Positions 29,830 through 61,664 are shown, counted from the first letter of the stretch. The stretch: 64,000 nt of DNA from Bacillota bacterium (GCA_017656145.1 JACDOI010000005.1:12941-76940), one strand, 5' to 3'. Numbers and translations are program-made. The notes: a model not told the origin generated them from the letters alone.

Positions 29830-29887
29830 GATCGCTCGTTCACCTCTCCTTAATGAAAGCATCGAACCATTGCCGGTTAACGCACCG

Positions 29888-32017: not shown

Positions 32018-32025
32018 CTCCGCGT

Positions 32026-33396: not shown

Positions 33397-33418
33397 GCAG
33401 CCTCACCTGCCTCTAGAC

Positions 33419-44159: not shown

Positions 44160-44201
44160 TGCCGCCTCACCGTCCTCTCCTCACTGTTTCGATTGGCGCG
44201 C

Positions 44202-47952: not shown

Positions 47953-48900
47953 TTACACGAGTACGATGCGGGGCTGCCACCGTACCCGGCCCCCGCTTTC
48001 GGCCGCCTCGGCCACGGCGATGACCGTTTCGCCGGGCTCCCAAAGTCCCACGAGCCCCTGAGCGGCACGAGGAGGCATCGGTCCGGCCAAGTGCTCCGGG
48101 CCAACGGCTTGCCCATGCCGGGCGCGCGCTTGCCCTGCAGCGGACAGCTTCAATGCGGGCAGGTGGCGCAACACATGCTCTTTCGTCACAAGGCGCAATA
48201 CTCCTCGTTCCGCGTCCTGGGCCAGCTCCTCCATGGTGCGGGCGGCCTCAAGACCGAACATCCCGCAACGGGTCCGGAGGAGGAACGACATGTACGCGCC
48301 CACACCGAGCGCCTGGCCCAGCTGGTGGCAGAGCGTTCGCACGTACGTGCCTTTGGAACATTCGATGTCGAGCAGCACCCGGGTCCCGGCCGGAAGCACC
48401 GGCCCATCCGGCTCGATACGCACGACTTGCAGCCGGCCGATCCGGACCCGGCGGGCCGGCCGCGGCACCTCGATCCCTTGACGGGCCAGCTCGTAGAGGT
48501 GCCGGCCCCGGTGACGGATCGCGGACGTCATCGGCGGTATTTGTTCGATCTCGCCGGCAAACCGGGCCACAACCTCGTCCAGTTTCTCCCGGGCCACCGT
48601 CCCCTCAGGACAGGTGCTCACGATCTTTCCGAATGCGTCGTGGGAATCGGTGGAGACCCCGAGCACCATTTCTGCCCGGTACTCTTTATCATCGGCTTGT
48701 AACAGCTCCACAAGGCGGGTCGCGCGGCCGACGCACAACACGAGCACCCCGGCGGCCCCGGGGTCCAACGTGCCCGTGTGCCCCACGCGCTTTGTACCAA
48801 GCAGCCGGCGGGCAAAGGCGACAACGTCGTGGGATGTGACTCCGGGCGGCTTCAACACGGGCAGCACGCCGTCCGCTGCGCCATGAACGCCCGCGCTCAC
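47953..48900 (-). CDS. truB: tRNA pseudouridine(55) synthase
   Basis: 315 aa with KPPGVTSHDVV and the catalytic motif GHTGTLDPGAAGVL. GTG overlaps the nrnA stop (GTGA). Confidence 0.95.
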   Translation of the reverse strand: MSAGVHGAADGVLPVLKPPGVTSHDVVAFARRLLGTKRVGHTGTLDPGAAGVLVLCVGRATRLVELLQADDKEYRAEMVLGVSTDSHDAFGKIVSTCPEGTVAREKLDEVVARFAGEIEQIPPMTSAIRHRGRHLYELARQGIEVPRPARRVRIGRLQVVRIEPDGPVLPAGTRVLLDIECSKGTYVRTLCHQLGQALGVGAYMSFLLRTRCGMFGLEAARTMEELAQDAERGVLRLVTKEHVLRHLPALKLSAAGQARARHGQAVGPEHLAGPMPPRAAQGLVGLWEPGETVIAVAEAAESGGRVRWQPRIVLV

Positions 48901-49901
48901 GGCGAGAATGGCTCCCTGCGCCCGGAAGACTGTTCGTCATCGAGCTCCCGGATCACCTCGGCCACGACCCGATTCCGGGCGGCATCGGGGGGCAGCGGCA
49001 GCGTGCAGCCAGCCGCGCGAGGATGGCCTCCGCCTCCGAGGCGCTGCGCGATGCGGCTCACGTCCACAGTCCCGCGGGAGCGCAATCCCACGCGGGTCTC
49101 TCCGCTCGAAAGCTCCCGCAACGCCAGCGCGACTTCCACCCCATTGACCATCCTCGGGTACTGGACGAACCCGTCGGCTTCGTCGTCCCGGGCGCCGGCT
49201 TCGGCGAGCATCCGGCGGGTAACGGTGATCCATGCGATGCGCCCGTCAGGGGTGCGGTCCATACCCGTTAAGGCTTTGGCCAGCAGGCGCATGGACGTCC
49301 ACGACGCGCGCTCATACACCTGGGAGGCGATCCAGTCGGGCCGGGCGCCGGCCTCGACCAGGCGAGCGGCCACCTTCAGTGCGGACGCGGTGGTGTTGCT
49401 GAAGCGAAACGATCCGGTATCGGTCATGAGCGCGGCATAGAGATTGGTCGCCGCCGCGCTATCGAGTTTGAGGTCCCAATAGTCGGTAAGCAGCCGGTAG
49501 ACGATCTCCCCGGTCGCGGCCGCGGCGGGATCCACATACCAACCGTTCCCAGCAGCGCTGTTGGTTGCATGATGGTCGAGGACGAAAAGCCGCGCAAACC
49601 GCCCGGCGTTCTGACCCACCTCGCCGGTGCGGGACGGCTCGCAGTCTAAGACCACAAGCGCTTCCGCAACCGGTGCGGGCGGTTGCATGATGCGCTCGGA
49701 TCCGGGCAGAAACCGCCATTCGGGCCGGACCGGATCAGGCGACACCAGCGTTACCTGCTTGCCCAATCGCTCCAGTCCCCAGGCAACCGCCAGCATCGAT
49801 CCGAGGCAGTCCGGATCCGGGTTGACGTGGCCCGTGACGACGAACGTCTCGTTGGCCCGCATCGCGGCCGCGACGGCGGCGAGCGACCCGTCAAGACCCA
49901 T
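48897..49901 (-). CDS. nrnA: DHH/DHHA1 phosphoesterase (NrnA-type oligoribonuclease / pAp phosphatase)
   Basis: Contains VVTGHVNPDPDCLGS, VLDHHATN, TDTGSFRF and GGGHPRAAG. ATG at 49901 overlaps the rbfA 3' end by 11 nt. Confidence 0.88.
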   Translation of the reverse strand: MGLDGSLAAVAAAMRANETFVVTGHVNPDPDCLGSMLAVAWGLERLGKQVTLVSPDPVRPEWRFLPGSERIMQPPAPVAEALVVLDCEPSRTGEVGQNAGRFARLFVLDHHATNSAAGNGWYVDPAAAATGEIVYRLLTDYWDLKLDSAAATNLYAALMTDTGSFRFSNTTASALKVAARLVEAGARPDWIASQVYERASWTSMRLLAKALTGMDRTPDGRIAWITVTRRMLAEAGARDDEADGFVQYPRMVNGVEVALALRELSSGETRVGLRSRGTVDVSRIAQRLGGGGHPRAAGCTLPLPPDAARNRVVAEVIRELDDEQSSGRREPFSP

Positions 49902-50271
49902 CAGCGTTCTCCCCGGACGTAACCGAGCGCAAGATGTTGTCGATTCGGTGCCCTCGCTCGATGGAATCATCGAGCCGGAACGCGATCTCGGGCGTGTGCC
50001 GGAGGCGAATGCGCTTGCCGATCTCTGTGCGCACAAATCCCCGGGCGTGTTCGAGCGCCGCCAGCGTCCGCTCTTTCTCCTCGGGGGTACCGTAGATGCT
50101 GACGAAGATCTTCACATGCCGCAAGTCCGACGAAATCTCGGCGTCCGTCACCGAAACGAACCCGATGCGCGGGTCCTTCATCTTGCGCAGGATGTCGCTG
50201 GCCTCCCGCTTCAACTCTTCCCGGATGCGTGCCGACCGTGGCACGGCCACGGACGCCCCCTCCTCCGACAC
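49891..50271 (-). CDS. rbfA: ribosome-binding factor A
   Basis: 126 aa with RIREELKREASDILR, DPRIGFVSVTDAEISSDLRHVKIFVS and HTPEIAF. Confidence 0.94.
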   Translation of the reverse strand: MSEEGASVAVPRSARIREELKREASDILRKMKDPRIGFVSVTDAEISSDLRHVKIFVSIYGTPEEKERTLAALEHARGFVRTEIGKRIRLRHTPEIAFRLDDSIERGHRIDNILRSVTSGENADGS

Positions 50272-50564: not shown

Positions 50565-52796
50565 TCACCGGGCGACCTCTTCGACGCGGAACGCTTCAAG
50601 CACGTCGCCTTCCTTAAGATCGTTGAAGCGCTCCAGTCCGATGCCGCACTCAAAGCCTGCGGCCACCTCGCGCACGTCGTCTTTGAACCGCTTCAGCGAG
50701 CTCATGGCGCCCTCGTACACCACAACGCCGTCCCGGATGACGCGAATGGAGCTTCCCCGGGCCACCTTGCCTTCGGTGACGTAGCAGCCGGCCACGGTGC
50801 CCACGTTGGGCACCCGGAACAACGCCCGAACCTCCGCCCGGCCAACGACGACTTCCCGGTACTCCGGTTTCAGCATGCCCTTCAGCGCCCGTTCGATCTC
50901 GTCGATGGCGTCGTATATCACCCGGTACAGCCGGATGTCGACGTTCTCCTGCTCCGCCACTTTGCGAGCCGTCGCATCGGGGCGGACGTTGAACCCAACA
51001 ATGACAGCGTTGGCGGTGGCGGCCAGGTCCACGTCGGTCTTGGTGATTGCGCCCACCGCGGCGTGCAGCACCCGGACCCGAACCTCATCGCCGCTCAGCT
51101 TCTCCAAGGCTCCCCGCAGCGCTTCCACCGAACCTTGGACGTCGCCCTTGATGATCAGCGGCAACTCCTGGATCTGGCCGTCGCCGGACTGCTGGAACAG
51201 TTGCTCCAGGTTGGCCCGGACGGGCTTCCGCATCTCCTGTTCCCGCAACTGCTCCCGGCGCCGGGCCGCCACTTCCCGGGCGAGCCGCTCCTCGGGAAGC
51301 ACCACCAGTTCGTCGCCCGCAGCCGGCACGTCCTCCAGCCCGAGCACTGACACGGGCATCGACGGTCCGGCTTGGGAGACCGGCTTGCCGCGGTCGTCAA
51401 ACATCGCCCGCACTTTGCCCGCCACGGGTCCGGCGACTACCGCATCCCCGAGCCTGAGCGTGCCCTTCTTCACCAGCACGGTAGCCACCGGGCCCCGGCT
51501 GCGATCAAGTTCCGCTTCGATGATGACTCCGCGGGCCGGCCGGTCGGGATTCGCCCGCAACTCCTTCAGCTCGCCGACGAGCACGATCATTTCCAAAAGG
51601 TCGTCAATGCCTTCCCGCTTCAAGGCCGAGACAGGCACCATCACCGTGTCGCCGCCCCAGTCTTCAGGGACGAGGCCCCGCTCCGCCAGTTGCTGCTTGA
51701 TCCGGTCGGGATTGGCGTCAGGCCGGTCCATCTTATTGATGGCGACGATGATCGGCACGCCGGCCGCCCGGGCGTGGTCGATGGCTTCCACCGTCTGGGG
51801 CATGACGCCGTCGTCCGCGGCCACGACCAGCACCGCGATGTCCGTCACCTGAGCTCCCCGCGACCGCATGGCGGTGAACGCTTCGTGGCCCGGGGTGTCA
51901 AGAAACGTAATGGACTTGTCGCGCCACTGCACCTGATAAGCACCGATGTGCTGGGTGATGCCGCCGGCCTCGGTGGCCGCGACCCGCGTCTCGCGAATCG
52001 CATCCAAAAGCGTCGTCTTGCCGTGGTCCACATGACCCATGATGGTCACGACCGGCGGCGCGGGCACCAGCTTCTCCGGAGGATCTTCCGCATCGGCCAA
52101 AGCCAGCGCTTCCTCGATCGGATCCTTGGGGCGGACCACCTCGAACCCAAGCCGGGTCGCGACCTTGGCCGCGGTCTCAAAATCCAAGCTCTGGTTGATG
52201 GTGGTCATAATGCCCTGGTTGAACAAGTACTTGACGATAGCCGCGGCCGGAACGCCCACCCTGCCGGCCAGCTCTTTGACGGGAATGTTTTCGGGTAGCT
52301 CCAGCTTCCCCCGGGACCCCGGCTCCGGCGGAGTGACCCGCTGGGGGCTGCGGGCCCCCGGCCGCTGGCCGTGCTGACCGGATCGCCGGCTTACCGATCC
52401 GGCCTTATTGGAGCTGCCGCCGGGCCGACCGGCCACATGACCGCCGCGCGCCGCGCGAGACCCTCCTGCCCCGCCGCTTGTTGCAGCACCCCGCCCTGAG
52501 CGCGGATCACCCTGGGATTGGACCCGGGATTGGGGGCGGGTCTGGGATTGGGGCTGGGGTTTTTGGGATTGCGCCTGGGGTTGGGGCCGTTCGCCCGGCG
52601 ACTGCACCTTGTCCGCGGCTGCCGGCCGAGCCGCCTTGGATTTGGCGAAGTGCCGGCGAATCCGCTGCACGTATTCGTCCTCAATGGTGCTCATGTGATT
52701 CCTGGCTTCTTGCCCCATGGACTCCAGGAGGTCGACGATCTGCTTGCTTTCCACGCCCAAGGCGCGGGCCAGTTCGTACACTCGGATCTTTGCCAT
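50565..52796 (-). CDS. infB: translation initiation factor IF-2
   Basis: [16 protein letters not shown]-terminus, Gln/Pro/Gly-rich linker, and G domain [29 protein letters not shown] at 52796 with GAGGTGA 8 nt upstream. Confidence 0.96.
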
Positions 52797-53118
52797 CGAC
52801 TGCATCACCTCGACTCGTTTCCCCGCCGCCCAGGGCTTGCCATAGCCGGTTCGCCCATCCCGGGTCGCATACCGCAATCACGGCCCGGGGCCGCTCGCCG
52901 ACCCACCGGCCGAGCTCTTCCTTTCGGCCCCACTGGACGACGGGCACCCCGTGCGTCTCGGCCATGTGCCGCACGCGGCGAACCAGCGCGGCCCCGGCGT
53001 CCTCAGCTACCAGCACAAGCCGCGCTTTGCCGTAGCGCACCGCCCGGCGACAAGCTTCATCGCCCGAAGCCACCTGCCCTGCGGCCCGGGCGAAGCCAAG
53101 CACCGCACTGGGGTTCAT
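52681..53118 (-). CDS. ylxQ: L7Ae-family RNA-binding protein YlxQ with a C-terminal run-on into infB
   Basis: ATG 53118 overlaps the ylxR TGA (ATGA). The core is [29 protein letters not shown]...HGVPVV. The frame stays open 116 nt past the infB start. Confidence 0.8.
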
Positions 53119-53384
53119 GACGGCGCGGCCAGCATGCCCGCGAGGCGTTCCCGAACCTCGTCCGGCACCGGATGCTGCAACGCCCGTTCCAGCCGCTTTC
53201 CCTTCCACGCCAGCTCCAAGCACCGGGGATCCGGGCACACGTACGCTCCCCGTCCAGCCAGCTTACCAGTAGTATCCACCGTCACCTGGCCGTCCGGGGT
53301 GCGCACCACCCGCACGAGTTCCCGCTTCGCTCGTACTTGCCGGCACCCGACACAAGTGCGCTGGGGGATCTTGCGCGGCTTCAC
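53115..53384 (-). CDS. ylxR: YlxR/RnpM family (DUF448) RNA-binding protein
   Basis: 89 aa with PQRTCVGCRQVRAKRELVRVV and GRGAYVCP. Confidence 0.92.
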   Translation of the reverse strand: MKPRKIPQRTCVGCRQVRAKRELVRVVRTPDGQVTVDTTGKLAGRGAYVCPDPRCLELAWKGKRLERALQHPVPDEVRERLAGMLAAPS

Positions 53385-53397
53385 CCGAAGCTCCCCC

Positions 53398-55077
53398 CTA
53401 TTCCTCTCGGAACAGCTCGCCCAAAGCCTTCAGGTCCCGGACGACCCGCTTCGGCTTTTGGCGGGCCTTTTTCGGGGCGGCCGGCGCGGGCTGCTCCTTG
53501 TCCGTCACTTGAACCTTTTCCAGCACCTGGGCCAGCCGCTGGCGCAAGGGGTTGTTGTCGTCCTCTTCTTCGGGTCCCGCGACGTACACCGGAACTTCGG
53601 CGCTCTCGCTCTCCTCGTCGTCCTCGTCACCGAACAAGGACGGCAACGGTTCGTCCTCCTCGAGGACTTCCTCCTCGAAGATCTCCTGCAGCTCCCGCCG
53701 GGCGACCTTGCCCTTTTTCGCCTTGGAAGCCGGCTTCTCCCGCTCCGGTTCGAGCTCCGTTTCGTCGACGACGGGCGTGAGAAACTCCTCGGGGAATTCG
53801 TCGTCCTCCACGAGCTCCGGTTCGGGCTCTTCCCCTTCGGCGGGCGCCGCTGCCTCGGCCGGAGCGGCTGCTGCGGGCAGTTCCGGCTGCTGCTCAAGTT
53901 CCTCGGGCGCCGCCGGTTCCTCCGGCACCGCTTCCTCCGCGCGGGCCGCCTCGGCCTCTTGCCGGGCCATTTCCGCGGCCCGCTTAGCCCGAAGGGCCGC
54001 TTCGGCCTCCTCGAACGCCCTCTGGGCCTCCAGCACCGCGAGCTCAGCCATTTGCGACTCGCTCTTAATGTCGATCTTCCAGCCGCACAGGCGGGCGGCC
54101 AGCCGCGCGTTCTGGCCCTCCTTGCCGATGGCGAGCGACAGCTGATGGTCAGGCACGACGGCCCGGGCAGTCTTCTCCTCGGAATTGAGGAACACCTGGA
54201 CGACTTTGGCCGGGCTCAAGGCGTTGGCCACAAACCGCTGCGGATCGGGGGACCACTCGACGATGTCGATCTTCTCCCCCTTGAGCTCTTGCACGACCGC
54301 CTGTACCCGGGAACCGCGGGGACCGACGCAGGCGCCCACCGGATCCACGTTGGATTCATAGGACCAGACGGCGATCTTGGAGCGATTGCCCGCTTCCCGG
54401 GCCACCGCCTTGATCTCCACCGTGCCGTCGTGGATCTCGGGAACCTCCAGCTCAAACAGGCGCTTGAGCAGCCCGGGGTGCGTCCTGGAAATCAAGACCT
54501 GGGGCCCCTTGGGCGTCTTGCGCACCTCGGTAATGTAGACTTTGATGCGGGACCCCGGGGAATACGTTTCGCCCGGCATCTGCTCGCTGGGAACGAGCAC
54601 CGACTCGATGCGGCCCAGATCCACGATGACGTTCCGGTGGTCCAGGCGCTGCACGATGCCGGTCACGATGTCGCCGGCCCGGTTCGCGTATTCCTCGTAG
54701 ATCAAGTTGCGTTCGGCCTCGCGGATGCGCTGGATGACGACCTGCTTGGCGGTTTGGGCGGCGATCCGGCCGAAATCCCGGGGCGTGATCTCGACCTCGG
54801 CCACGTCGTGGAGGTTGTAGTTCGGGTCGATCTTCCTGGCGTCGTCTAGGGAGATCTCCGTGGCGTCGTCTTCCACCTCTTCGACCACGTCCTTTAGGGC
54901 GTAAACCCGCATCTTCCCGGTGCGGTCGTCCACGACGACCCGCACGTTCTCCGCGGACCCGTAGTGGCGCTTGTACGCCGAGACGATGGCCGCTTCAATG
55001 GCCTCCATCAGAATCTCTTTTGAAATGCCCCGTTCCTTCTCAAGCTCGTTCAGCGCGCCAACCAGTTCCAGGTTCAT
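53398..55077 (-). CDS. nusA: transcription termination/antitermination factor NusA with a long acidic C-terminal extension
   Basis: MNLELVGALNELEKERGISKE N-terminus, S1 domain (GDIVTGIVQR) and KH1/KH2 (VGACVGPRGSRVQ, AIGKEGQNARLAARL). These are followed by about 217 aa of Glu/Ala/Pro-rich sequence. Confidence 0.95.
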   Translation of the reverse strand: MNLELVGALNELEKERGISKEILMEAIEAAIVSAYKRHYGSAENVRVVVDDRTGKMRVYALKDVVEEVEDDATEISLDDARKIDPNYNLHDVAEVEITPRDFGRIAAQTAKQVVIQRIREAERNLIYEEYANRAGDIVTGIVQRLDHRNVIVDLGRIESVLVPSEQMPGETYSPGSRIKVYITEVRKTPKGPQVLISRTHPGLLKRLFELEVPEIHDGTVEIKAVAREAGNRSKIAVWSYESNVDPVGACVGPRGSRVQAVVQELKGEKIDIVEWSPDPQRFVANALSPAKVVQVFLNSEEKTARAVVPDHQLSLAIGKEGQNARLAARLCGWKIDIKSESQMAELAVLEAQRAFEEAEAALRAKRAAEMARQEAEAARAEEAVPEEPAAPEELEQQPELPAAAAPAEAAAPAEGEEPEPELVEDDEFPEEFLTPVVDETELEPEREKPASKAKKGKVARRELQEIFEEEVLEEDEPLPSLFGDEDDEESESAEVPVYVAGPEEEDDNNPLRQRLAQVLEKVQVTDKEQPAPAAPKKARQKPKRVVRDLKALGELFREE

Positions 55078-55146
55078 CGCCGCCAGCTTCCTCCCGCTCG
55101 TTGTTCCCGAAACGGCCCGGTCCATTGGTGACCCGTCGGTTCCCGC

Positions 55147-55608
55147 TCATCCTTCAGCCACGAGGTGGGCCTTGGCAACGAGATCGTGGGGAATGGCCAC
55201 CTCGCCGTCATCGGTCCGCAGCACCACGTCACCGCCGACGAGTCCCACAAGCAGCCCTTGCCAGTTACGGCGGCCGTCCACGGGCTTGAAGGTGCGCAGC
55301 CGGATCCGTCGCCCGGCAAACCGGACGAAATCTTCGGGCTGGCGCAGCGGCCGTTCGATGCCGGGTGAGGAAACTTCCAGGCTGTACGGACCGGGAATGG
55401 GATCCCGCTCGTCGAGGCGTTCTCCCAGCGCCTCGCTGAAGGCCTGGCAGTCGTCCAAGGTCACCCCGGTCGGCTTGTCGATGAAGACCCGCAACACCCA
55501 GCCGCCAGCCTCCCGCCGGTATTCCACGTCCACGACTTCAAGCCCCAGGCCCGGGGCCACTTCTTGTGCGAGCGGTCGAACCGCCGCCAAAACGTCGCGG
55601 GCTCCCAC
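55147..55608 (-). CDS. rimP: ribosome maturation factor RimP
   Basis: Contains GLEVVDVEYRREAGGWVLRVFIDKP and LEVSSPGIERPL. GTG at 55608 with AAAGGAGAGG about 7 nt upstream. Confidence 0.92.
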   Translation of the reverse strand: MGARDVLAAVRPLAQEVAPGLGLEVVDVEYRREAGGWVLRVFIDKPTGVTLDDCQAFSEALGERLDERDPIPGPYSLEVSSPGIERPLRQPEDFVRFAGRRIRLRTFKPVDGRRNWQGLLVGLVGGDVVLRTDDGEVAIPHDLVAKAHLVAEG

Positions 55609-55692
55609 AGACGCCCCTCTCCTTTCGGCGAGCGGCGCCCCCGGTTCCGGACCCGGCCCGTTCCTCACCGGGCGAACAGGGCCCAACATTAA

Positions 55693-55722
55693 CGAAAGAG
55701 TGGGGAAGTCCCCACTCTTTCG
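55693..55722 (-). terminator. leader hairpin (candidate attenuator) of the rimP-nusA-infB operon
   Basis: Perfect 13-bp stem CGAAAGAGTGGGG-(4-nt loop)-CCCCACTCTTTCG followed on the minus strand by an interrupted U-tract (TTAATGTT). It lies downstream of the promoter at 55753..55781 and upstream of rimP. Confidence 0.6.
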
Positions 55723-55752
55723 CCGAAGGCACGCATCGCCGTCCTGATGACC

Positions 55753-55781
55753 AGTATACCATTGCACAGGGGCTTTGGCAA
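55753..55781 (-). promoter_or_regulatory. sigma-A-type promoter of the rimP-nusA operon
   Basis: Minus strand TTGCCA (55781..55776), a 17-nt spacer, then TATACT (55758..55753) with an upstream TG, starting 10 nt after the polC stop. Confidence 0.65.
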
Positions 55782-55790
55782 CAGCCCCCG

Positions 55791-58700
55791 CTAAAAAAGC
55801 GTCAGCTGGTCCGTCTCTGGCAAGCCGTCCAGGGCCCCGTGCTGGCGCAAGGCATCGACGACGCTGCGGCTCACGCCCGCCCGCCGCCGCAAGTCTTCCA
55901 TAGACGTGAACGGGCCCTCTTTCCGGGCCGCGGCGATGCTGTCCGCCGCGCTGGCGCCGACTCCCGCCAGCGCCATGAGCGGCGGCAAAAGGCCTTGAGG
56001 CGTGATCCGGAACCGTCGCGGGTCGGATTCGTACAGATGCACCCGTCGAAACGAAATGCCGCGGGCCATGGCTTCCAACACGATCTCCAAAATCGTCACC
56101 AAGTTTTTCTCTCGGGCGGTCGCTTCCGGCCCTTTGCGTTCTACCGCTTCCATGGCCCGGCGCATGGCTTCCCGCCCTTCGATCACCAGCTGCGCGTCGT
56201 ACTCTTCGGCCCGCACCGACAGGTAGGACGCGTAAAACGCCTCGGGATAATGGACTTTAAAGTACGCGATGCGAAACGCCATCATCACGTAGGCCGCGGC
56301 GTGGGCTTTGGGGAACATGTAGCTGATCTTTTGGCATGACTCGATGTACCACTCGGGCAAGCCGTGGCGCCGCATCAGTTCTTCGTCCTCAGGCTTGAGC
56401 CCCTTGCCCTTGCGGACCTGCTCCATGATCCGGAACGCTGCTCCGGATTCTATCCCCCGCTGGATCAGGTACGTCATGATGTCGTCCCGGGTCGCAATGA
56501 CTTCCGGCAACGTCGCGATGCCCCGCCGGATCAAGTCCTGGGCGTTGTTGGTCCAGACGTTGGTCCCATGGGAGAGGCCACTGATTCGCACCAGTTCCGC
56601 GAATGTACGGGGCCTGGTTTCTTCCAGCATCTGCCGGACGAACCGGGTGCCGAACTCAGGCACGCCCAGGGTGCCCACGTTGGTCCCGGCCTCCCCCGGC
56701 CGCAGTCCCAGCGAGGTCACGTCGCGAAAGATGGCCATCGTATCCGGATCGTCCAGGGGAATTCTGCGGACGTCGACCCCCGTCATATCCTGGAGCATCC
56801 GGAGCACGGTCGGATCGTCGTGGCCGAGGATGTCCAGCTTCACCAGGTTGTCGTGCAGCGCATGGAAATCGAAATGGGTCGTCACAACGCCGGCGTCCCG
56901 ATCGTTGGCGGGGTATTGCACCGGAGTGAACTCGTGGATATCCCGGCCGCGGGGGACGACGATGAGCCCGCCCGGGTGCTGGCCCGTAGTCCGCCGCACG
57001 CCCGAGCATCCCCGGACCAGGCGGTTCACCTCCGCCGCGCGCGCTTCCCGCCCTTGGGCTTCGAGGAACTTCCGGACGTAGCCGTACGCGGTGCGCTCCG
57101 CGAGGGTAGCCGTGGTGCCGGCCCGGTAAACGTTTTCCTTGCCGAGAAGTTCCTCCGCGTACTTATGGGCTTCCGCCTGGTATTCCCCGGAAAAGTTGAG
57201 GTCGATATCGGGCACCTTGTCGCCGTGGAATCCCATGAACGTTTCGAACGGGATGTCGAACCCGTCTTTTTCCAGCGACTGGCCGCAGCGGGGACACTCG
57301 CGGGCCGGCAGATCGATCCCGCACCCGTAGCGGCCGTCGGTGAAAAACTGGGTCCACTGGCAAGATGGGCAGACGTAGTGCGGCGGCAGGGGATTGACCT
57401 CGGTGATGCCGCACATGGTCGCCACCAGCGACGAGCCCACCGAACCCCGGGAACCGACCAGGTATCCGTCCTCCAGCGACTTGCGAACGAGCTTGTGAGC
57501 GATGTAATACAGCGGCGCAAAGCCGTTGTCGATAATCGCCTTCAGCTCCCGCTCAAGCCGGGTCTCCACGATCTCCGGCAACGGATCCCCATACCGGGCC
57601 CGGGCCCGCTGGCGGGCCATGGCCGCGATGGTGTCGGCCGCTTCGGGCACATCCGGCGTATGGAGGCCGGGCGGCACCGGCTCCATGGACTCGCAACGGT
57701 CGGCGATCCGGTTGGGGTTGACGATGACGACTTCCCGGGCCTTCTCGTCTCCCAAATAGGCGAACTCCTCGAGCATTTCCCGGGTCGTGCGCAGATATAG
57801 GGGCGTCGGCCGTTCCGCAGTGCTGAAGCCGTGGCCGGCCATGAGAATGCGGCGGAAGATATCGTCTTCCGGATGGATGAAATGCGCGTCGGAGGTGGCC
57901 ACCACCGGAAGCCCCAATTCCTCGCCGAGCTTGACGATGCGCCGGTTGATCTCGAGCAGGTCGTCTTCGCCCTTCACTTTCCCCTCGCCGATCAGAAACC
58001 GGTTGTTGTCCCTGGGCTGAATCTCCAGGTAGTCGTAAAACCGCGCCCGCTCCAACAGCTTCTCCCACGGCTCGCCCGACAAAATCGCCTGGTACAGTTC
58101 CCCGGCCTCGCAGGCGGAGCCGACGATCAGCCCTTCCCTCCGCCGGGCCAGCTCGTCCCGGGGGATCCGGGGGTTGCGGTAAAAGTAGCGCAAGTGCGAA
58201 AGAGAAACCAGCTCGTACAGGTTTCTCAGTCCCCGCTTGTTCCGGGCCAGGATGATGATGTGGTATGATCGGCTTCGCGCCTCGGGGTCGTCGACCAAAT
58301 ACCCCTCGATGCCGTAAATCAGCTTAATTCCGGACGCCGCTGCGGCCTGGTGCGCCTCGGGAAAGGCGTGGATGACCCCGTGGTCGGTGACGGCCACGGC
58401 CCGGTGTCCCCACGCGGCCGCCTGGCGAATAGCCGCAGCCACATCCGCGGCGCCGTCCAGGCTGCTCATCTTGGTGTGCATGTGCAGTTCGACCCGCTTT
58501 TCGGGCCAGTCGTCGATCCTTGCGCGGGGTTCCGTCCGCATTATATCCTTGGCGCTCAAGACCAGCTCCCGGGCGAACCGGTCGAACTCCACCCGGCCCC
58601 GGATCCGGACCGCTGTGCCCGCCGGCAACGGGTCTGCCAGCACCGCCTCTCCGCGGGCGAACAACTTAACCGTGATGGAGTCGGTGCGGTCGGTGATGTC

Positions 58701-59264
58701 GAAGCTGATCAGCCGGCCGCCCCGCACTTCCCGGACATCCCAGGTCATGACCTCGCCTTCGACCACAACTTCCGGCACCGGTTCCGTGATCGACGAAAGC
58801 GGCACGACATCCCCCGTCACCGCCCGGCCCAAGAGCACAGGGCTGTCTTCGTTCTTGCCCGCTGGAGCGTCCGACCCCGCGGCGTTTACCTCCTCAGGGG
58901 CTGCCGCCATCGCCAGCAGTCGCTCGATATAGGCGTCGTCGTCTTGCAGTGACGGAGCGGTTTCCGGCTCAAGGCCATCGGCCGGGCCGGACTGGCCGGC
59001 GGCCCCGGGGGTTGCCGGCAAAAACCGGACACGGTTGATGTCGGGTACAAGCGCTTCGATTCGCTCCTCGATGGGCTTCAAGATCGCGGGAGAGAACCCG
59101 GCGTCGCTGGCATCGACGTAGATCAGCCACTCCCGGCGGAGAGTATCCACTTCAACCCGCTCCAGCCGGACCCGTGCGAGCCATTCTCGACCCGCCTCGG
59201 GAAGTTCACCCGCGGCTTCCTTGAGAAGCCGGGCATCGCCGGGTTCAATGACGAAAATTCCCAT
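55791..59264 (-). CDS. polC: DNA polymerase III alpha subunit, PolC type, lacking the internal DEDD 3'-5' exonuclease domain
   Basis: 1157 aa. PolC N-domain/OB, PHP (VELHMHTKMSSLDG, AVTDHG), Zn-finger region (HYVCPSCQ...CPRCG), palm (GDKVPDIDLNFSGEYQ) and HhH tail. At IYGIEGYLVDD-PEARSRS-YHIIILARN the PHP halves are joined directly. ATG start with GAGGTG RBS. Confidence 0.93.
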   Translation of the reverse strand: MGIFVIEPGDARLLKEAAGELPEAGREWLARVRLERVEVDTLRREWLIYVDASDAGFSPAILKPIEERIEALVPDINRVRFLPATPGAAGQSGPADGLEPETAPSLQDDDAYIERLLAMAAAPEEVNAAGSDAPAGKNEDSPVLLGRAVTGDVVPLSSITEPVPEVVVEGEVMTWDVREVRGGRLISFDITDRTDSITVKLFARGEAVLADPLPAGTAVRIRGRVEFDRFARELVLSAKDIMRTEPRARIDDWPEKRVELHMHTKMSSLDGAADVAAAIRQAAAWGHRAVAVTDHGVIHAFPEAHQAAAASGIKLIYGIEGYLVDDPEARSRSYHIIILARNKRGLRNLYELVSLSHLRYFYRNPRIPRDELARRREGLIVGSACEAGELYQAILSGEPWEKLLERARFYDYLEIQPRDNNRFLIGEGKVKGEDDLLEINRRIVKLGEELGLPVVATSDAHFIHPEDDIFRRILMAGHGFSTAERPTPLYLRTTREMLEEFAYLGDEKAREVVIVNPNRIADRCESMEPVPPGLHTPDVPEAADTIAAMARQRARARYGDPLPEIVETRLERELKAIIDNGFAPLYYIAHKLVRKSLEDGYLVGSRGSVGSSLVATMCGITEVNPLPPHYVCPSCQWTQFFTDGRYGCGIDLPARECPRCGQSLEKDGFDIPFETFMGFHGDKVPDIDLNFSGEYQAEAHKYAEELLGKENVYRAGTTATLAERTAYGYVRKFLEAQGREARAAEVNRLVRGCSGVRRTTGQHPGGLIVVPRGRDIHEFTPVQYPANDRDAGVVTTHFDFHALHDNLVKLDILGHDDPTVLRMLQDMTGVDVRRIPLDDPDTMAIFRDVTSLGLRPGEAGTNVGTLGVPEFGTRFVRQMLEETRPRTFAELVRISGLSHGTNVWTNNAQDLIRRGIATLPEVIATRDDIMTYLIQRGIESGAAFRIMEQVRKGKGLKPEDEELMRRHGLPEWYIESCQKISYMFPKAHAAAYVMMAFRIAYFKVHYPEAFYASYLSVRAEEYDAQLVIEGREAMRRAMEAVERKGPEATAREKNLVTILEIVLEAMARGISFRRVHLYESDPRRFRITPQGLLPPLMALAGVGASAADSIAAARKEGPFTSMEDLRRRAGVSRSVVDALRQHGALDGLPETDQLTLF

Positions 59265-59286
59265 ATGAGCACCTCACGGTGGGACG

Positions 59287-59910
59287 TTACCGGTACGACT
59301 TGATGATCTCCCAATACATCTTCATCCGGGCGCGAAATCCCCGCCATACCCCGGCCTTTTCTTCCTTCATGACTTGAGCCAGTCCCGGCAGCCGGACCTT
59401 GACCACGCGAAAGCCTTGCCGGTCGGCGTAACGGGACAACGCCACCTCGACCCCGAAACGGCTTTGCGCCAGTTCGGGGACTCCCTCCAGAATTTCTCGG
59501 CGAACCGCCCGCTGGCCCGAGAGAACAGGCATCAGCCTTTGGGCCAGGTCCGTCGCGAACCGTCCGTGATCGAAGACACCCAGCGACATGTCGGCCCGGC
59601 CGCTTGTTACCGGCTCAAGCAGCGACCGGATGTGACTCGTTCGCAAGCCGACCAGATCGGCATCGAGGAACAGGATGATGTCCGCGTCGGTTGCATTGAC
59701 CCCCGCCATCATGGCGCCGCCCTTGCCGACGTTGGTGGCGAGCTCCACCACCTGGACCGGAAACCGGCGGGCCACCGCGGCCGTGTCGTCTTCGCATCCG
59801 TCGCAGACGACGATGACCTCGTGGACGAATCGGCACCGGGTCGCCCGGCGCAGCACCCGGGCGATGTTGTCAGCCTCATTGTAGGCGGGAATGACGATGG
59901 CAACCTTCAC
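59287..59910 (-). CDS. family 2 glycosyltransferase
   Basis: VAIVIPAYNEADNI, DGCEDDT (DxD-like) and FLDADL. GTG at 59910 after GGGGAG; the track start at 59970 overlaps proS. Confidence 0.85.
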   Translation of the reverse strand: MKVAIVIPAYNEADNIARVLRRATRCRFVHEVIVVCDGCEDDTAAVARRFPVQVVELATNVGKGGAMMAGVNATDADIILFLDADLVGLRTSHIRSLLEPVTSGRADMSLGVFDHGRFATDLAQRLMPVLSGQRAVRREILEGVPELAQSRFGVEVALSRYADRQGFRVVKVRLPGLAQVMKEEKAGVWRGFRARMKMYWEIIKSYR

Positions 59911-59939
59911 GGCTACCCATCTCCCCTGCCTCGATGCCT

Positions 59940-61664
59940 TTAGGGCCGGGGAATGGCCGCCTCCAGCCACGCCTTGGCCGCGCCTGCCGTCTCAGGCAGC
60001 GCAACCCGCTCATCATAACTTCCGTCGCGGCTTTTCAGTTCCACCGACCCTTCGGCCAGCGCCCTGGGCCCGACCGTAATCCGCAGCGGAAAGCCGATCA
60101 AGTCGGCGTCCTTAAACTTGACGCCCGCCCGTTCGGGCCGATCGTCCAGCACCGTTTCCACACCGGCCGCGCTGAGTTCCCGGTACAGTTGCTCGGCTGC
60201 CTGCCGCTGCCGCTCGTCCTCGTATTTGACCGGAACGATGACGACGTGGTAGGGAGCCACCGACACCGGCCAGCGAATGCCGTTTTCGTCGTGGTGCTGC
60301 TCGATGATCGCGGCCATGGTGCGGCTGATGCCGATGCCGTAGCATCCCATGACCACAGGGTGCGACTCGCCTCGCTCGTCCAAGTACGTGGCACCCAAGA
60401 CCTCCGAGTACTTGGTGCCCAGCTTGAAGATCTGGCCCACCTCGATCCCGCGGGCCGCGGCCAACGGCGCCCCGCAGCGGGGGCAAGGGTCGCCCGGCGC
60501 AGCCGTCCGGATGTCCGCGATCACATCGGCTTGCCAGTCCCGCCCCGGCTCCACGTGGATAAGGTGCTCATCCGCCGCGTTAGCGCCAGCCACCCCGTCG
60601 CGCACGCGGGCGGCCCACGGGTCGGCGACGATGCGCACGCCTGACAAGCCGGCGGGCCCGGCGAAGCCCACCGGAGCCCCGGTCACCCGTTCGATGACGG
60701 CGGCCGAGGCCATGGCCACCGAGGTTGCGCCGAGCGCTCGCTTGAGCTTGACTTCATTGAGCTCATGATCGCCCCGGACGACCGCTGCGACCGGTTCGCC
60801 GTCGGCTTCGTAGATCAATGTCTTGAGCAAACGGTCCGCGGGCACGCCCAAAAACCGGGTCAGCTCGTCGATGGTCCGCACGCTTGGGGTGGCAACCCGC
60901 TCGGCCGCCGGCACCGGTTTGTCCGGCTCATCCCCCGGCGGCGGCGGGACGCACTCGGCCTTTTCCGTATTGGCCGCATACGCGCATTGCGGGCAGTGGA
61001 CGACCGCAGCCTCGCCGGCTTCGGCCAACACCATGAACTCATGGGTCACATTGCCGCCGATGGCCCCCGGGTCCGCTTCCACCGCCCGGACGTCAAGCCC
61101 CATGCGCTGGAACGCCCGGGTGTAGGCGTCGTACATCTTGGCGTAGCTTTCGTCCAATCCCGCCTCGTCCCGGTCGAACGAATACAAGTCCTTCATGATG
61201 AACTCCCGGCCCCGCATCACGCCGAACCGGGGCCGGATTTCGTCCCGGTACTTGTTGGCGATCTGGTAGAGCAAAAGCGGCAGCTGGCGATACGACCGGA
61301 CTTCTGCCCGTACCAGGGCGGTGATCAGCTCTTCGTGGGTGGGGCCGAGGCAAAACTCCCGCCCGTGGCGGTCCTTCAACCGGAACATCTCGTCGCCGTA
61401 TTCGGTCCATCGGCCCGTCTCCCGCCACAGCTCCGCCGGTTGAACGATGGGCATCAAGAGCTCTTGACCGCCTTTGTTGTCCATTTCCTCCCGCACAATG
61501 TTCATGATCTTTTGCAGCACCCGCCATCCCAAAGGCAGGTACGTGTACATGCCGGCGGCCGTCTTGCGCAACAGCCCCGCCCGCAACATGAGCTGATGGC
61601 TGACGATCTCCGCTTCCCCGGGCGTCTCGCGCAGCGTCGGCGCGAGCAGCTGGGACATGCGCAT
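59940..61664 (-). CDS. proS: proline--tRNA ligase (bacterial type with INS editing domain)
   Basis: [51 protein letters not shown] and [12 protein letters not shown] at 61664 with AAGGAGG 7 nt upstream. The 131-codon extension in the track is out-of-frame rseP sequence. Confidence 0.95.

What the first reader, a model, noticed from the sequence alone, without database searches (positions are those of the whole stretch)
55791..59264. PolC replicase without its PHP-inserted DEDD proofreading exonuclease domain
Canonical PolC enzymes (B. subtilis, Geobacillus) are about 1,430-1,450 aa. They carry a DnaQ-like DEDD exonuclease of roughly 200 aa inserted inside the PHP domain. This ORF is 1157 aa. 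The two PHP halves are fused directly at ...IKLIYGIEGYLVDD-PEARSRS-YHIIILARNKRGLRNLYELVSLSH... (nt 58263..58292). No ExoI (D-x-E-T-T-G), ExoII or ExoIII (H-x-A-x-x-D) motifs occur anywhere in the protein. The rest is clearly PolC (N-domain, OB, Zn finger, palm, HhH). The PHP metal-ligand motifs (HMH, TDHG, SDAH) appear intact. Proofreading may therefore have moved to the PHP domain, as in some DnaE1 enzymes, or to a trans-acting DnaQ.
Basis: partly seen in the sequence, partly recalled or inferred. Interest (0 to 1): 0.7.

Follow-up and report, generated by a model that had tools for sequence, protein, structure and literature searches.

The report
Exonuclease-less PolC replicase from Limnochordia
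This is a real, intact copy of the Gram-positive replicative DNA polymerase PolC that naturally lacks its built-in proofreading exonuclease, but such PolCs were described in 2014 and are common in several anaerobic Firmicute lineages, so it is a new member of a known variant, not a discovery.

Summary
ORF 55791-59264(-) encodes a 1157-aa PolC whose two PHP halves are joined by a 7-residue linker (PEARSRS) where canonical PolCs carry a 205-207-aa DEDD exonuclease. No exonuclease domain or motif was detected in the protein, in any frame of the 64-kb window, or within 10 kb of 80 related polC loci. It is not an assembly artefact: an independent assembly is identical, and 96 of 120 closest homologs lack the domain at the same anchor points, including proteins on multi-megabase (apparently complete) contigs of named species. 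The polymerase hallmarks and all nine PHP metal ligands are intact, and the gene sits in the canonical proS-polC-rimP-nusA-infB position.

It is not new. Timinskas et al. (NAR 2014) reported that about 6% of PolCs lack the Exo insertion, in Clostridia and Negativicutes, paired with DnaE1.

Additions here:
- The trait covers the Limnochordia-type clade in the sample.
- Clade-specific linker lengths and a tree suggest at least three independent excisions.

How proofreading is done is unresolved. PHP-based proofreading is plausible, since the ligands are intact, but the groove-lining PHP loop is minimal.

The parts
55791..59264 (-). polC ORF, 1157 aa plus stop codon. It is an exonuclease-less PolC-type DNA polymerase III alpha subunit.
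   Evidence: The ORF is listed. NCBIfam NF001688 scores 1491 bits (cutoff 873) and TIGR01405 scores 1386 bits (cutoff 1043). It aligns in one stretch to 3F2B. The AF2 model matches 3F2B with TM 0.95 and 2.5 A rmsd.
59270..59275 (-). Shine-Dalgarno GAGGTG, 5 nt upstream of the ATG. An in-frame TGA lies at 59274-59276.
   Evidence: This shows the short N-terminus is not a start-codon artefact.
59016..59264 (-). NI-like N-terminal subdomain, residues 1-83.
   Evidence: It aligns with the NI segment of full-length PolCs. The AF2 model gives a compact alpha/beta fold with block pLDDT of 67-91. It is below Pfam PF14480 detection.
58815..59015 (-). Disordered Ala/Pro/Gly/Asp/Glu-rich linker, residues 84-150, occupying the place of subdomain NII (absent).
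   Evidence: The alignment shows a gap of roughly 80-100 residues relative to NII-bearing PolCs. PF11490 is found in P0068 and P0091 but not here or in L. pilosa P0026. The length before the OB domain is 165 aa here, against a median of 248 in exo+ relatives. pLDDT is below 50 for residues 86-109 and 121-138.
58536..58778 (-). OB fold, residues 163-243, located N-terminal to PHP. This domain order is specific to PolC.
   Evidence: Pfam PF01336 matches residues 166-241. The model has strands at 163-243.
58287..58499 (-). PHP domain, N-terminal half, residues 256-326, with ligands H261, H263, D270, H295 and E320.
   Evidence: Pfam PF02811 matches residues 259-410. The ligands are invariant in 96 exo-less and 23 exo+ relatives.
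58266..58286 (-). Seven-residue junction linker PEARSRS, residues 327-333, in place of the 205-207-aa DEDD exonuclease.
   Evidence: Searches show a linker of 6-7 aa (7 in 65 of 66) in the 66 Limnochordia-type sequences. The model shows a tight loop (325-333) between PHP strands 314-324 and 334-340, with block pLDDT of 88-94.
57630..58265 (-). PHP domain, C-terminal half, residues 334-545, with ligands H335, C385, D459 and H461.
   Evidence: D459 is an Asn in G. kaustophilus PolC ('GNVH' in the alignment).
56085..57629 (-). Polymerase core (palm, thumb, fingers), residues 546-1060. Catalytic Asp residues are D686 and D688 (PDIDLNF) and D811 (KLDILGHDD).
   Evidence: Pfam PF07733 and PF17657 match. 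The motifs are located. D686, D688 and D811 are invariant in 46 sequences.
57285..57371 (-). Four-cysteine Zn module, CPSC (632-635) and CPRC (657-660).
   Evidence: The motifs are located. C632, C635, C657 and C660 are invariant.
55818..56060 (-). Tandem helix-hairpin-helix domain, residues 1069-1149.
   Evidence: Pfam PF14579 matches at E=1.6e-13.
55794..55808 (-). C-terminal beta-clamp-binding motif QLTLF, residues 1153-1157.
   Evidence: Q1153 and F1157 are invariant. The consensus QxxLF motif is discussed in PMC3919608.
59940..62057 (-). proS (proline-tRNA ligase), the upstream neighbour in the conserved polC neighbourhood.
   Evidence: NCBIfam NF006625 scores 807.7 bits.
53398..55767 (-). 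rimP (55147-55767) and nusA (53398-55125), the downstream neighbours, followed by infB at 50565-52877.
   Evidence: Called genes in L081 agree.

Best explanation
Identity. This is the genuine, functional, positionally orthologous polC of a Limnochordia-class bacterium (Bacillota, about 66% GC). It belongs to the already described subgroup of PolC enzymes that have lost the DnaQ-like DEDD exonuclease normally inserted between PHP strands 3 and 4.

Shown here. The domain was excised cleanly at its boundaries, leaving a 7-residue loop that closes the PHP barrel. The rest of the enzyme is unchanged and length-invariant (about 985 residues from the OB domain to the C-terminus). That includes the OB fold, both PHP halves, the Zn module, the catalytic Asp triad, the fingers, the HhH domain and a C-terminal QLTLF clamp motif. 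In this clade the N-terminal subdomain NII is also gone.

Inferred. The enzyme still works as a clamp-bound replicative polymerase, like the engineered dN/dExo G. kaustophilus PolC that was crystallised with DNA, which it matches closely.

Proofreading cannot be done by a cis DEDD domain. The most likely solution, at roughly 45%, is the intrinsic metal-dependent 3'-5' exonuclease of the PHP domain. All nine of its ligands (HHDHEHCDH) are intact. This may be backed up by the DnaE1 partner that, according to the literature, always accompanies exo-less PolCs.

The Exo domain was probably lost independently at least three times, on a clostridial-type background where PolC-PHP, PolC-Exo and DnaE1-PHP are redundant proofreaders.

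The confidence value of 0.85 refers to the identity, architecture and class assignment. The PHP proofreading step is rated separately at about 0.45.
For: Architecture.

No DEDD domain in the window or in 80 related loci, with a 23/23 positive control.

Not an artefact: an identical independent assembly; 96 of 120 homologs are exo-less with the same anchor points, including L. pilosa, Sporomusa, Pelosinus, Heliorestis and Thermanaeromonas proteins on multi-megabase contigs.

Positional orthology: the gene order dxr..proS-GT-polC-rimP-nusA-infB-rbfA-truB-pnp.

Intact catalytic, Zn and clamp motifs.

Nine of nine PHP ligands, invariant in 119 relatives. This matches the 'active' PHP criterion of PMC12926913. 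Gka PolC has Asn at the D459 position and shows no PHP exonuclease activity.

Structure: the AF2 model has pLDDT 87, a confident junction loop, and TM 0.95 with 2.5 A rmsd to 3F2B, the dExo construct.

Known class, always paired with DnaE1: PMC3919608.

Recurrent loss: a Fitch count of 4 state changes on the NJ tree, with at least 3 in 98 of 100 bootstraps. Linker lengths are clade-specific at 7, 5 and 10-15 aa, with exo+ lineages interleaved.
Against: PHP-based proofreading in any PolC has never been demonstrated, as far as the searched literature shows.

The Exo domain sits in the PHP loop that lines the ssDNA groove in PHP-active enzymes. That loop is 29 aa in Mtb and 18 aa in Taq, but only 9 aa in E. 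coli, where PHP is inactive (PMC5636811). Here the loop is only about 9 residues.

An intact PHP is not specific to exo-less PolCs, because 23 of 23 exo+ relatives also have 9 of 9 ligands.

The three exo-less clades share no convergent substitutions.

PHP is not consistently more constrained relative to the polymerase core in exo-less clades. The PHP/core identity ratios are 0.97, 0.90 and 0.87, against 0.88 in exo+ sequences.

The presence of DnaE1, a stand-alone DnaQ or a second polC in this particular genome could not be checked.

The tree is a distance tree without an outgroup, so the number of losses is approximate.
Confidence: 0.85

Rival explanations
1. Proofreading is supplied in trans by a separately encoded DnaQ-like (epsilon-type) exonuclease that docks on the exo-less PolC, as epsilon does on E. 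coli alpha. The DEDD function was moved to another gene, not lost.
For: Bacterial proteomes carry more than three stand-alone DnaQ homologs on average (PMC12926913). Inactive PHP domains in DnaE1 are routinely complemented by stand-alone DnaQ. The minimal PHP loop here resembles the epsilon-dependent E. coli enzyme.
Against: No DEDD domain was found in any frame of the 64-kb window, or within +/-10 kb of 80 exo-less polC loci, using an HMM that recovered 23 of 23 controls. So there is no conserved linked partner. Epsilon-dependent polymerases typically have degenerate PHP sites, whereas this one is 9/9 intact. No epsilon-PolC complex is known.
Confidence: 0.2
2. The exo-less PolC does not proofread at all. 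DnaE1, with its own active PHP, is the main or the correcting replicase. PolC has a specialised or subsidiary role, and fidelity is secured by DnaE1 in trans and by mismatch repair.
For: Timinskas et al. raise this possibility. They note that some Clostridia have DnaE1 only, that clostridial DnaE1 has every feature of a self-sufficient replicase, and that exo-less PolCs occur only in PolC+DnaE1 genomes (PMC3919608). Trans-proofreading between polymerases has a precedent, since B. subtilis DnaE3 is proofread by PolC Exo (PMC12926913). Recurrent loss implies that the Exo domain is dispensable on this background.
Against: The gene keeps its canonical position and every polymerase and clamp-binding hallmark. 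The core is about 55-60% identical across classes. The nine PHP ligands are invariant in all 96 exo-less sequences, which is hard to explain if the site has no function, although a purely structural role for PHP is documented in E. coli. The window shows the strong leading-strand gene bias usually associated with PolC-driven replication, though this is weak evidence from only 64 kb.
Confidence: 0.25
3. The missing domain is an assembly or binning artefact, or the gene is a decaying pseudogene.
For: The window comes from a metagenome-assembled genome. The deletion is in frame and sits exactly at a domain boundary.
Against: An independent Logan assembly is identical over 8.6 kb. There are 66 Limnochordia-type orthologs with the same 6-7-aa linker (7 aa in 65 of them), plus multi-megabase, apparently complete contigs of L. 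pilosa and others. The ORF is uninterrupted, with all catalytic residues invariant and a confident fold. No remnant of the Exo domain is detectable in any frame.
Confidence: 0.01
4. The exo-less architecture is the ancestral PolC state in these lineages, and the DEDD domain was gained later, so nothing was lost here.
For: Exo-less PolCs occur in several deep-branching Bacillota classes (Limnochordia, Negativicutes, Heliobacteria). PHP is regarded as the older proofreader in C-family polymerases. This last point rests on the Rock et al. 2015 'ancestral prokaryotic proofreader' argument, recalled from general knowledge, not read here.
Against: Exo+ and exo-less lineages are interleaved on the tree, requiring 3-4 state changes. 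All Exo insertions are homologous, 205-207 aa long and at the identical PHP position. Multiple gains are therefore far less parsimonious than multiple losses. The linkers left behind differ between clades, as expected for independent deletions.
Confidence: 0.07

Closest known systems
Exo-less PolC subgroup of Clostridia and Negativicutes (Timinskas, Balvociute, Timinskas & Venclovas, NAR 2014, PMC3919608)
   Same: The same architecture: PolC without the Exo insertion in PHP, a conserved PHP metal site and a conserved clamp motif. The same excision anchor points are seen in Negativicutes, Heliobacteria, Thermanaeromonas and Syntrophomonadaceae sequences.
   Different: This protein belongs to the class Limnochordia, which the 2014 paper does not mention (in the passages read); L. 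pilosa is in the 2026 dataset. The clade has its own 7-aa linker and additionally lacks NII. Pairing with DnaE1 was not verifiable for this genome.
Canonical PolC (B. subtilis, G. kaustophilus, E. faecium; PDB 9QPC)
   Same: The OB-PHP-palm/thumb/fingers-HhH order, the Zn module, the catalytic Asp triad, the C-terminal clamp motif and the proS-polC-rimP-nusA synteny are shared. Identity to Gka PolC is 54%.
   Different: It lacks the 205-207-aa DEDD exonuclease and subdomain NII. It has Asp at ligand position 8, where Gka PolC has Asn. According to the literature, the exo-less class partners with DnaE1, whereas Bacilli use DnaE3.
Engineered G. kaustophilus PolC dN/dExo crystallisation construct (PDB 3F2B/3F2C/3F2D, Evans et al. 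2008)
   Same: It is the closest structural match, with TM 0.95 and 2.5 A rmsd over about 1,000 residues. The sequence aligns in a single uninterrupted stretch across the junction. That construct had the Exo domain removed for crystallisation and still binds DNA and dGTP.
   Different: The construct is man-made, while this is the natural equivalent. The natural linker is shorter and this protein retains an NI-like domain.
PHP-proofreading DnaE1 (M. tuberculosis DnaE1, Thermus PolIII alpha; PMC5636811)
   Same: A nine-residue PHP metal site of five His, three Asp/Glu and one Cys, with no cis DEDD domain.
   Different: It is a different branch of the C-family (DnaE versus PolC). The groove-lining PHP loop is 18-29 aa in those enzymes and about 9 aa here. 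PHP exonuclease activity has not been shown for any PolC in the literature read here.
E. coli Pol III alpha-epsilon core
   Same: The polymerase polypeptide has no DEDD domain and a short PHP loop of 9 aa.
   Different: E. coli alpha has five of the nine PHP ligands altered and depends on a separate epsilon subunit. Here the PHP site is intact, and no epsilon-like gene was found in the window.

Membership tests
PolC-type DNA polymerase III alpha (C-family) | Whole-protein match above the curated equivalog cutoffs. | tested here: met
   NF001688 scores 1491 bits against a cutoff of 873. TIGR01405 scores 1386 bits against a cutoff of 1043. The DnaE models all fall far below their cutoffs.
PolC-type DNA polymerase III alpha (C-family) | [quoted passage not shown] | tested here: met
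   The OB fold spans residues 166-241 and precedes PHP at 259-410. The model agrees.
PolC-type DNA polymerase III alpha (C-family) | Polymerase catalytic aspartates and the four-Cys Zn module in the palm region. | tested here: met
   The PDIDLNF motif (D686, D688), the KLDILGHDD motif (D811) and C632, C635, C657 and C660 are all present and invariant.
PolC-type DNA polymerase III alpha (C-family) | Beta-clamp-binding motif (QxxLF type). | tested here: met
   QLTLF forms the extreme C-terminus at residues 1153-1157. Q1153 and F1157 are invariant.
PolC-type DNA polymerase III alpha (C-family) | DnaQ-like DEDDh 3'-5' exonuclease inserted in the PHP domain, the hallmark of canonical PolC. | tested here: not met
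   There is no PF00929 match at E<=1. No Exo motifs are present. The Exo HMM is negative with a 23/23 positive control. A 7-aa linker replaces 205-207 aa.
PolC-type DNA polymerase III alpha (C-family) | N-terminal domain made of subdomains NI and NII. | tested here: inconclusive
   An NI-like fold is predicted for residues 1-83, but it is below Pfam detection. NII is absent and replaced by a disordered linker. Timinskas et al. could not assign an NTD in 7% of PolCs.
PolC-type DNA polymerase III alpha (C-family) | Conserved genomic position (proS-polC-rimP-nusA-ylxR-infB). | tested here: met
   One glycosyltransferase gene is intercalated between proS and polC.
Exo-less PolC subgroup (Timinskas et al. 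2014) | PolC lacking the Exo insertion, with both PHP halves contiguous. | tested here: met
Exo-less PolC subgroup (Timinskas et al. 2014) | Conserved PHP metal-binding site, nine of nine residues (HHDHEH[C/H]DH). | tested here: met
   H261, H263, D270, H295, E320, H335, C385, D459 and H461 are all present. The criterion comes from PMC12926913.
Exo-less PolC subgroup (Timinskas et al. 2014) | Co-occurrence with a DnaE1 (not DnaE3) in the same genome, and no second exo-bearing PolC. | not testable with these tools
   No second C-family polymerase is in the 64-kb window or in the 80 loci.
Exo-less PolC subgroup (Timinskas et al. 2014) | Taxonomic range Clostridia and Negativicutes. | tested here: inconclusive
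   The closest named relatives are Limnochordales and Limnochordia. This is a separate class of Bacillota, so the range is extended and not contradicted.
PHP-exonuclease proofreading polymerases (Mtb DnaE1 type) | Trinuclear metal site with nine conserved ligands. | tested here: met
   The definition comes from PMC5636811.
PHP-exonuclease proofreading polymerases (Mtb DnaE1 type) | A long PHP loop lining a groove that is continuous with the active site. | tested here: not met
   The loop at residues 325-333 is about 9 residues long, against 29 in Mtb and 18 in Taq.
PHP-exonuclease proofreading polymerases (Mtb DnaE1 type) | Demonstrated Zn/Mn-dependent 3'-5' exonuclease activity. | not testable with these tools
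   This requires biochemistry.

The most novel reading that the evidence does not exclude
Limnochordia-type PolC is a naturally minimised replicase, lacking both NII and Exo, in which the PHP domain is the sole cis proofreader. On this reading, the DnaQ-like Exo domain has been discarded independently at least three times in Bacillota because PHP proofreading is sufficient in clostridial-type PolCs. That would make these enzymes the first PolCs known to proofread through PHP. They would also be a natural experiment on the turnover between the two bacterial proofreading systems.
Probability: 0.3. Interest if true: 0.55.

Novelty: new member of a known kind. Interest (0 to 1): 0.3.

Why it matters
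As an observation it matters little, because exo-less PolCs have been in the literature since 2014 and this protein is already deposited and annotated as PolC.

The open question behind it has some value. Nobody has characterised a PolC+DnaE1 replisome experimentally (PMC3919608), and it is unknown how a PolC without its DEDD domain achieves fidelity.

This analysis adds three points that sharpen that question:
1. In this sample the exo-less state covers the whole Limnochordia-type clade and dominates the nearest homologs, at 96 of 120.
2. The loss appears recurrent and always precise at the domain boundaries.
3. The PHP site is fully intact, but its substrate-groove loop is minimal. The PHP proofreading hypothesis is therefore neither trivially true nor excluded.

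Cultured exo-less species such as Limnochorda pilosa, Pelosinus and Sporomusa would be convenient sources of enzyme for a direct test.

Tried and rejected
1. Remnant or relocated Exo domain. I built an HMM from 23 PolC Exo domains and searched all six frames of the window and 80 related loci, also with --max and E<=100. Nothing was found, and the positive control was 23/23.

2. Second C-family polymerase near polC. None was found in the window or in the loci.

3. Per-genome polymerase and proofreader tables of the 2026 NAR survey. L. pilosa and H. convoluta are in the dataset, but the stored supplement files are truncated and only the genome list was retrievable. The 2014 supplements held no species names that I searched for.

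4. P0058, a 1330-aa homolog with a 77-aa insert at the junction, considered as a possible decaying Exo domain. It is a low-complexity acidic/Ala/Pro linker with no Pfam or Exo-HMM hit.

5. Convergent substitutions shared by the three exo-less clades. Only one linker column and one palm surface column (residue 710) discriminate them, and Gka PolC (exo+) has Asp at that palm position, so there is no signal.

6. Tighter constraint on PHP after Exo loss. The PHP/core identity ratio is higher only in the Limnochordia clade (0.97). It is not higher in the other two exo-less clades (0.90 and 0.87, against 0.88 for exo+). The result is inconclusive.

7. A mis-called start codon as the reason for the short N-terminus. 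This is rejected, because there is an in-frame stop three codons upstream.

8. A literature search for Limnochordia together with PolC or DnaE found no paper.

9. A repeat finder on the junction failed because of a strand-parameter error. I did not repeat it, because the independent assembly and the orthologs made it unnecessary.

Full report
**Observation**

The ORF at 55791..59264 on the minus strand exists and encodes 1157 aa. An in-frame TGA lies three codons upstream of the ATG, and a GAGGTG Shine-Dalgarno sits 5 nt upstream, so the protein cannot be longer at its N-terminus.

Pfam detects an OB fold (166-241), PHP (259-410), pol3_alpha (546-737), fingers (817-956) and HHH_6 (1069-1149). 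It detects no RNase_T/DEDD domain even at E<=1. The NCBIfam PolC equivalogs are passed comfortably: NF001688 scores 1491 bits against a cutoff of 873, and TIGR01405 scores 1386 against 1043. The match is split into two stretches, and the best one starts at profile position 611.

The protein aligns in one uninterrupted stretch to PDB 3F2B. That entry is the G. kaustophilus PolC construct from which the exonuclease was removed for crystallisation (PMC12592400).

**The junction**

A MAFFT alignment with full-length relatives shows a clean excision. About 205 residues carrying ExoI (DxETTG), ExoII (AHNAxFD) and ExoIII (HHRAxDDA) are missing between YLVDD (322-326) and YHIIIL (334-). They are replaced by PEARSRS.

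The length arithmetic closes:
- Query: 165 (N-terminus) + 7 (linker) + 985 (OB to C-terminus) = 1157 aa.
- Typical exo+ relative: 248 + 206 + 988 aa.
- The core is length-invariant across all groups.

**Not an artefact**

- A Logan assembly of run SRR13776092 carries the identical protein, and its 8,618-bp contig matches window 52906-61523 with 0 mismatches.
- Of the 120 best homologs, 96 lack the domain, with linkers of 5-24 aa, and 23 carry it at 205-207 aa.
- The exo-less set includes proteins of named species on multi-megabase, apparently complete contigs: Limnochorda pilosa, Thermanaeromonas toyohensis, Sporomusa, Pelosinus and Heliorestis.
- All 80 loci recovered from GTDB species genomes have match lengths that leave no room for the domain, and none contains an Exo-HMM hit.

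**Is the exonuclease elsewhere?**

An HMM built from the 23 PolC Exo domains recovered all 23 controls at E<=1e-82. It found nothing at E<=1 in any frame of the 64-kb window or in the 80 loci with +/-10 kb flanks, even with HMMER's filters switched off. No second C-family polymerase lies in the window or in the loci. The presence of DnaE1, a stand-alone DnaQ or a second polC in this organism therefore remains untested.

**Identity and context**

The neighbourhood is dxr ... proS - glycosyltransferase - polC - rimP - nusA - (ylxR) - infB - rbfA - DHH/DHHA1 - truB - ribF - pnp. From general knowledge, this matches the conserved arrangement around polC in B. subtilis. The gene is therefore the positional ortholog and not a stray paralog.

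The closest named relatives are Limnochordales and Limnochordia MAGs at 73-82% identity, and L. pilosa at 59%. At about 66% GC, the window comes from a Limnochordia-class bacterium.

All the polymerase hallmarks are present and invariant in a 46-sequence alignment:
- D686 and D688 (PDIDLNF)
- D811 (KLDILGHDD)
- the four-Cys module (C632, C635, C657, C660)
- the C-terminal clamp motif QLTLF

The N-terminal subdomain NII (PF11490) is absent. Residues 84-150 are an Ala/Pro/Gly/Asp/Glu-rich segment that AlphaFold leaves largely disordered (pLDDT below 50 for 86-109 and 121-138; one helix is predicted at 109-121). Residues 1-83 form a compact NI-like fold that Pfam does not detect.

This is a clade trait. 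The median N-terminal length before the OB fold is 173 aa in the Limnochordia-type group, against 226-248 aa in the other groups. Exo-less Negativicutes PolCs such as Pelosinus P0091 keep both NI and NII.

**Structure**

The AF2 model has a mean pLDDT of 87 and pTM of 0.75. It places the junction as a tight loop (325-333) between two PHP strands (314-324 and 334-340), with block pLDDT of 88-94. The model superimposes on 3F2B with TM 0.95 and 2.5 A rmsd. The natural protein is thus the equivalent of the engineered dExo enzyme, which was crystallised as a ternary complex with DNA and dGTP (entry titles).

**PHP site**

All nine metal ligands are present: H261, H263, D270, H295, E320, H335, C385, D459 and H461. 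They are invariant in all 96 exo-less and 23 exo+ relatives. This matches the 'active' signature HHDHEH[C/H]DH used in the 2026 survey (PMC12926913). Gka PolC has Asn at the D459 position ('GNVH') and is reported to lack PHP exonuclease activity (PMC5636811).

Three points weigh against a simple PHP-proofreader reading:
1. The same paper notes that the Exo domain of PolC is inserted in the PHP loop that lines the ssDNA groove in PHP-active enzymes. That loop is 29 aa in Mtb and 18 aa in Taq, but only 9 aa in E. coli, where PHP is inactive. Here it is about 9 aa.
2. The three exo-less clades share no convergent substitutions.
3. PHP is not consistently more constrained relative to the polymerase core after Exo loss.

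**Evolution**

I built a neighbour-joining tree from 119 sequences and 1,069 columns with the Exo columns removed. It requires 4 changes of Exo state by Fitch parsimony, and at least 3 in 98 of 100 bootstraps.

The exo-less clades have characteristic linkers:
- 7 aa, pattern P-[DE]-x-[KR]-[SG]-R-[SM], in Limnochordia
- 5 aa (DINQA) in Negativicutes
- 10-15 aa in a group containing Heliobacteria, Thermanaeromonas and Syntrophomonadaceae

Exo+ lineages such as Thermincola and Desulfotomaculum are interleaved among these clades. All Exo insertions are homologous and sit at the identical site. Recurrent precise loss is therefore much more parsimonious than repeated gain. The tree is distance-based and has no outgroup, so the exact number of losses is provisional.

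**Comparison with what is known**

Timinskas et al. (NAR 2014, PMC3919608) reported that 6% of PolC sequences lack the Exo insertion. With one exception, an extra PolC copy in Thermotogae, they occur only in Clostridia and Negativicutes, whose genomes pair PolC with DnaE1. They make up 16% of the PolCs in PolC+DnaE1 systems. The authors asked whether DnaE1 might be the main replicase in such organisms.

The 2026 survey finds that Clostridia usually have three 'active' proofreaders: PolC-PHP, PolC-DnaQ and DnaE1-PHP. This redundancy explains why the Exo domain can be lost on that background.

The class is therefore known. The protein itself is already in NCBI, annotated as a PolC-type DNA polymerase III. 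No paper in the searched library discusses Limnochordia PolC.

**Verdict**

Two qualifications apply. The finding is a new member of a known variant, and the N-domain is not intact.

The mechanism of proofreading remains undecided. My estimates are:
- PHP-based proofreading: about 45%
- No cis proofreading, with DnaE1 or mismatch repair compensating: about 25%
- A trans-acting DnaQ: about 20%
- Other possibilities: the remainder

Noticed in passing
window 41842-43065 (-) and 43059-44180 (-): A stand-alone PHP-family protein (TIGR00375, PHP_C) is a clear Endonuclease Q homolog, with E=4.7e-48 to P. furiosus EndoQ (5ZB8). It overlaps by a few bases a DUF3866 gene (E=8.6e-121) just upstream on the same strand, and a SpoIIM gene follows. 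From general knowledge, EndoQ cleaves DNA next to deaminated or abasic bases, which makes it a repair nuclease rather than a proofreader. The tight EndoQ-DUF3866 pairing may be worth examining.
   Followed up: partly
window 59287-59970 (-): A family-2 glycosyltransferase gene is intercalated between proS and polC in the otherwise canonical proS-polC-rimP-nusA arrangement.
   Followed up: no
whole window 1-64000: Roughly 90% of likely genes lie on the minus strand. The plus-strand ORFs that my heuristic called at nusA, rimP, ribF and the DHH gene are shadows of verified minus-strand genes. The cumulative GC skew falls monotonically to -1.98. This is the strong leading-strand gene bias typical of PolC-bearing Firmicutes, here in a genome whose PolC lacks Exo and NII.
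   Followed up: partly
window 53398-55125 (-): NusA is 575 aa long. The NusA domains end near residue 360, and a tail of about 200 aa follows that is rich in acidic, Ala and Pro residues and is of low complexity. Similar Ala/Pro/Glu-rich linkers replace NII in this PolC, which suggests a lineage-wide tendency in this high-GC genome.
   Followed up: no
window 28042-33402 (-): Three consecutive large ORFs of 633, 738 and 458 aa have no NCBIfam match. One has only coiled-coil-like weak Pfam hits, and one has a weak cohesin domain (E=1.4e-5). They may encode a cell-surface or filament apparatus.
   Followed up: no
window 48897-50036 (-): A DHH/DHHA1 phosphoesterase, NrnA-like, lies between rbfA and truB. 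From general knowledge, NrnA-type enzymes are nano-RNases or oligonucleotide exonucleases and not replicative proofreaders.
   Followed up: no
P0014 (homolog from ENA, 1865 aa): An exo-bearing PolC homolog has about 375 extra residues in the OB-to-C-terminus core (1,363 aa against about 988), and its pol3_alpha match is split into two stretches. This may be an intein or another insertion.
   Followed up: no
P0058 (homolog, 1330 aa), junction region: One exo-less PolC near the base of the Limnochordia clade carries a 77-aa acidic/Ala/Pro low-complexity insert exactly at the Exo junction, and two others have inserts of 23-24 aa. This shows that the PHP loop tolerates disordered insertions.
   Followed up: yes
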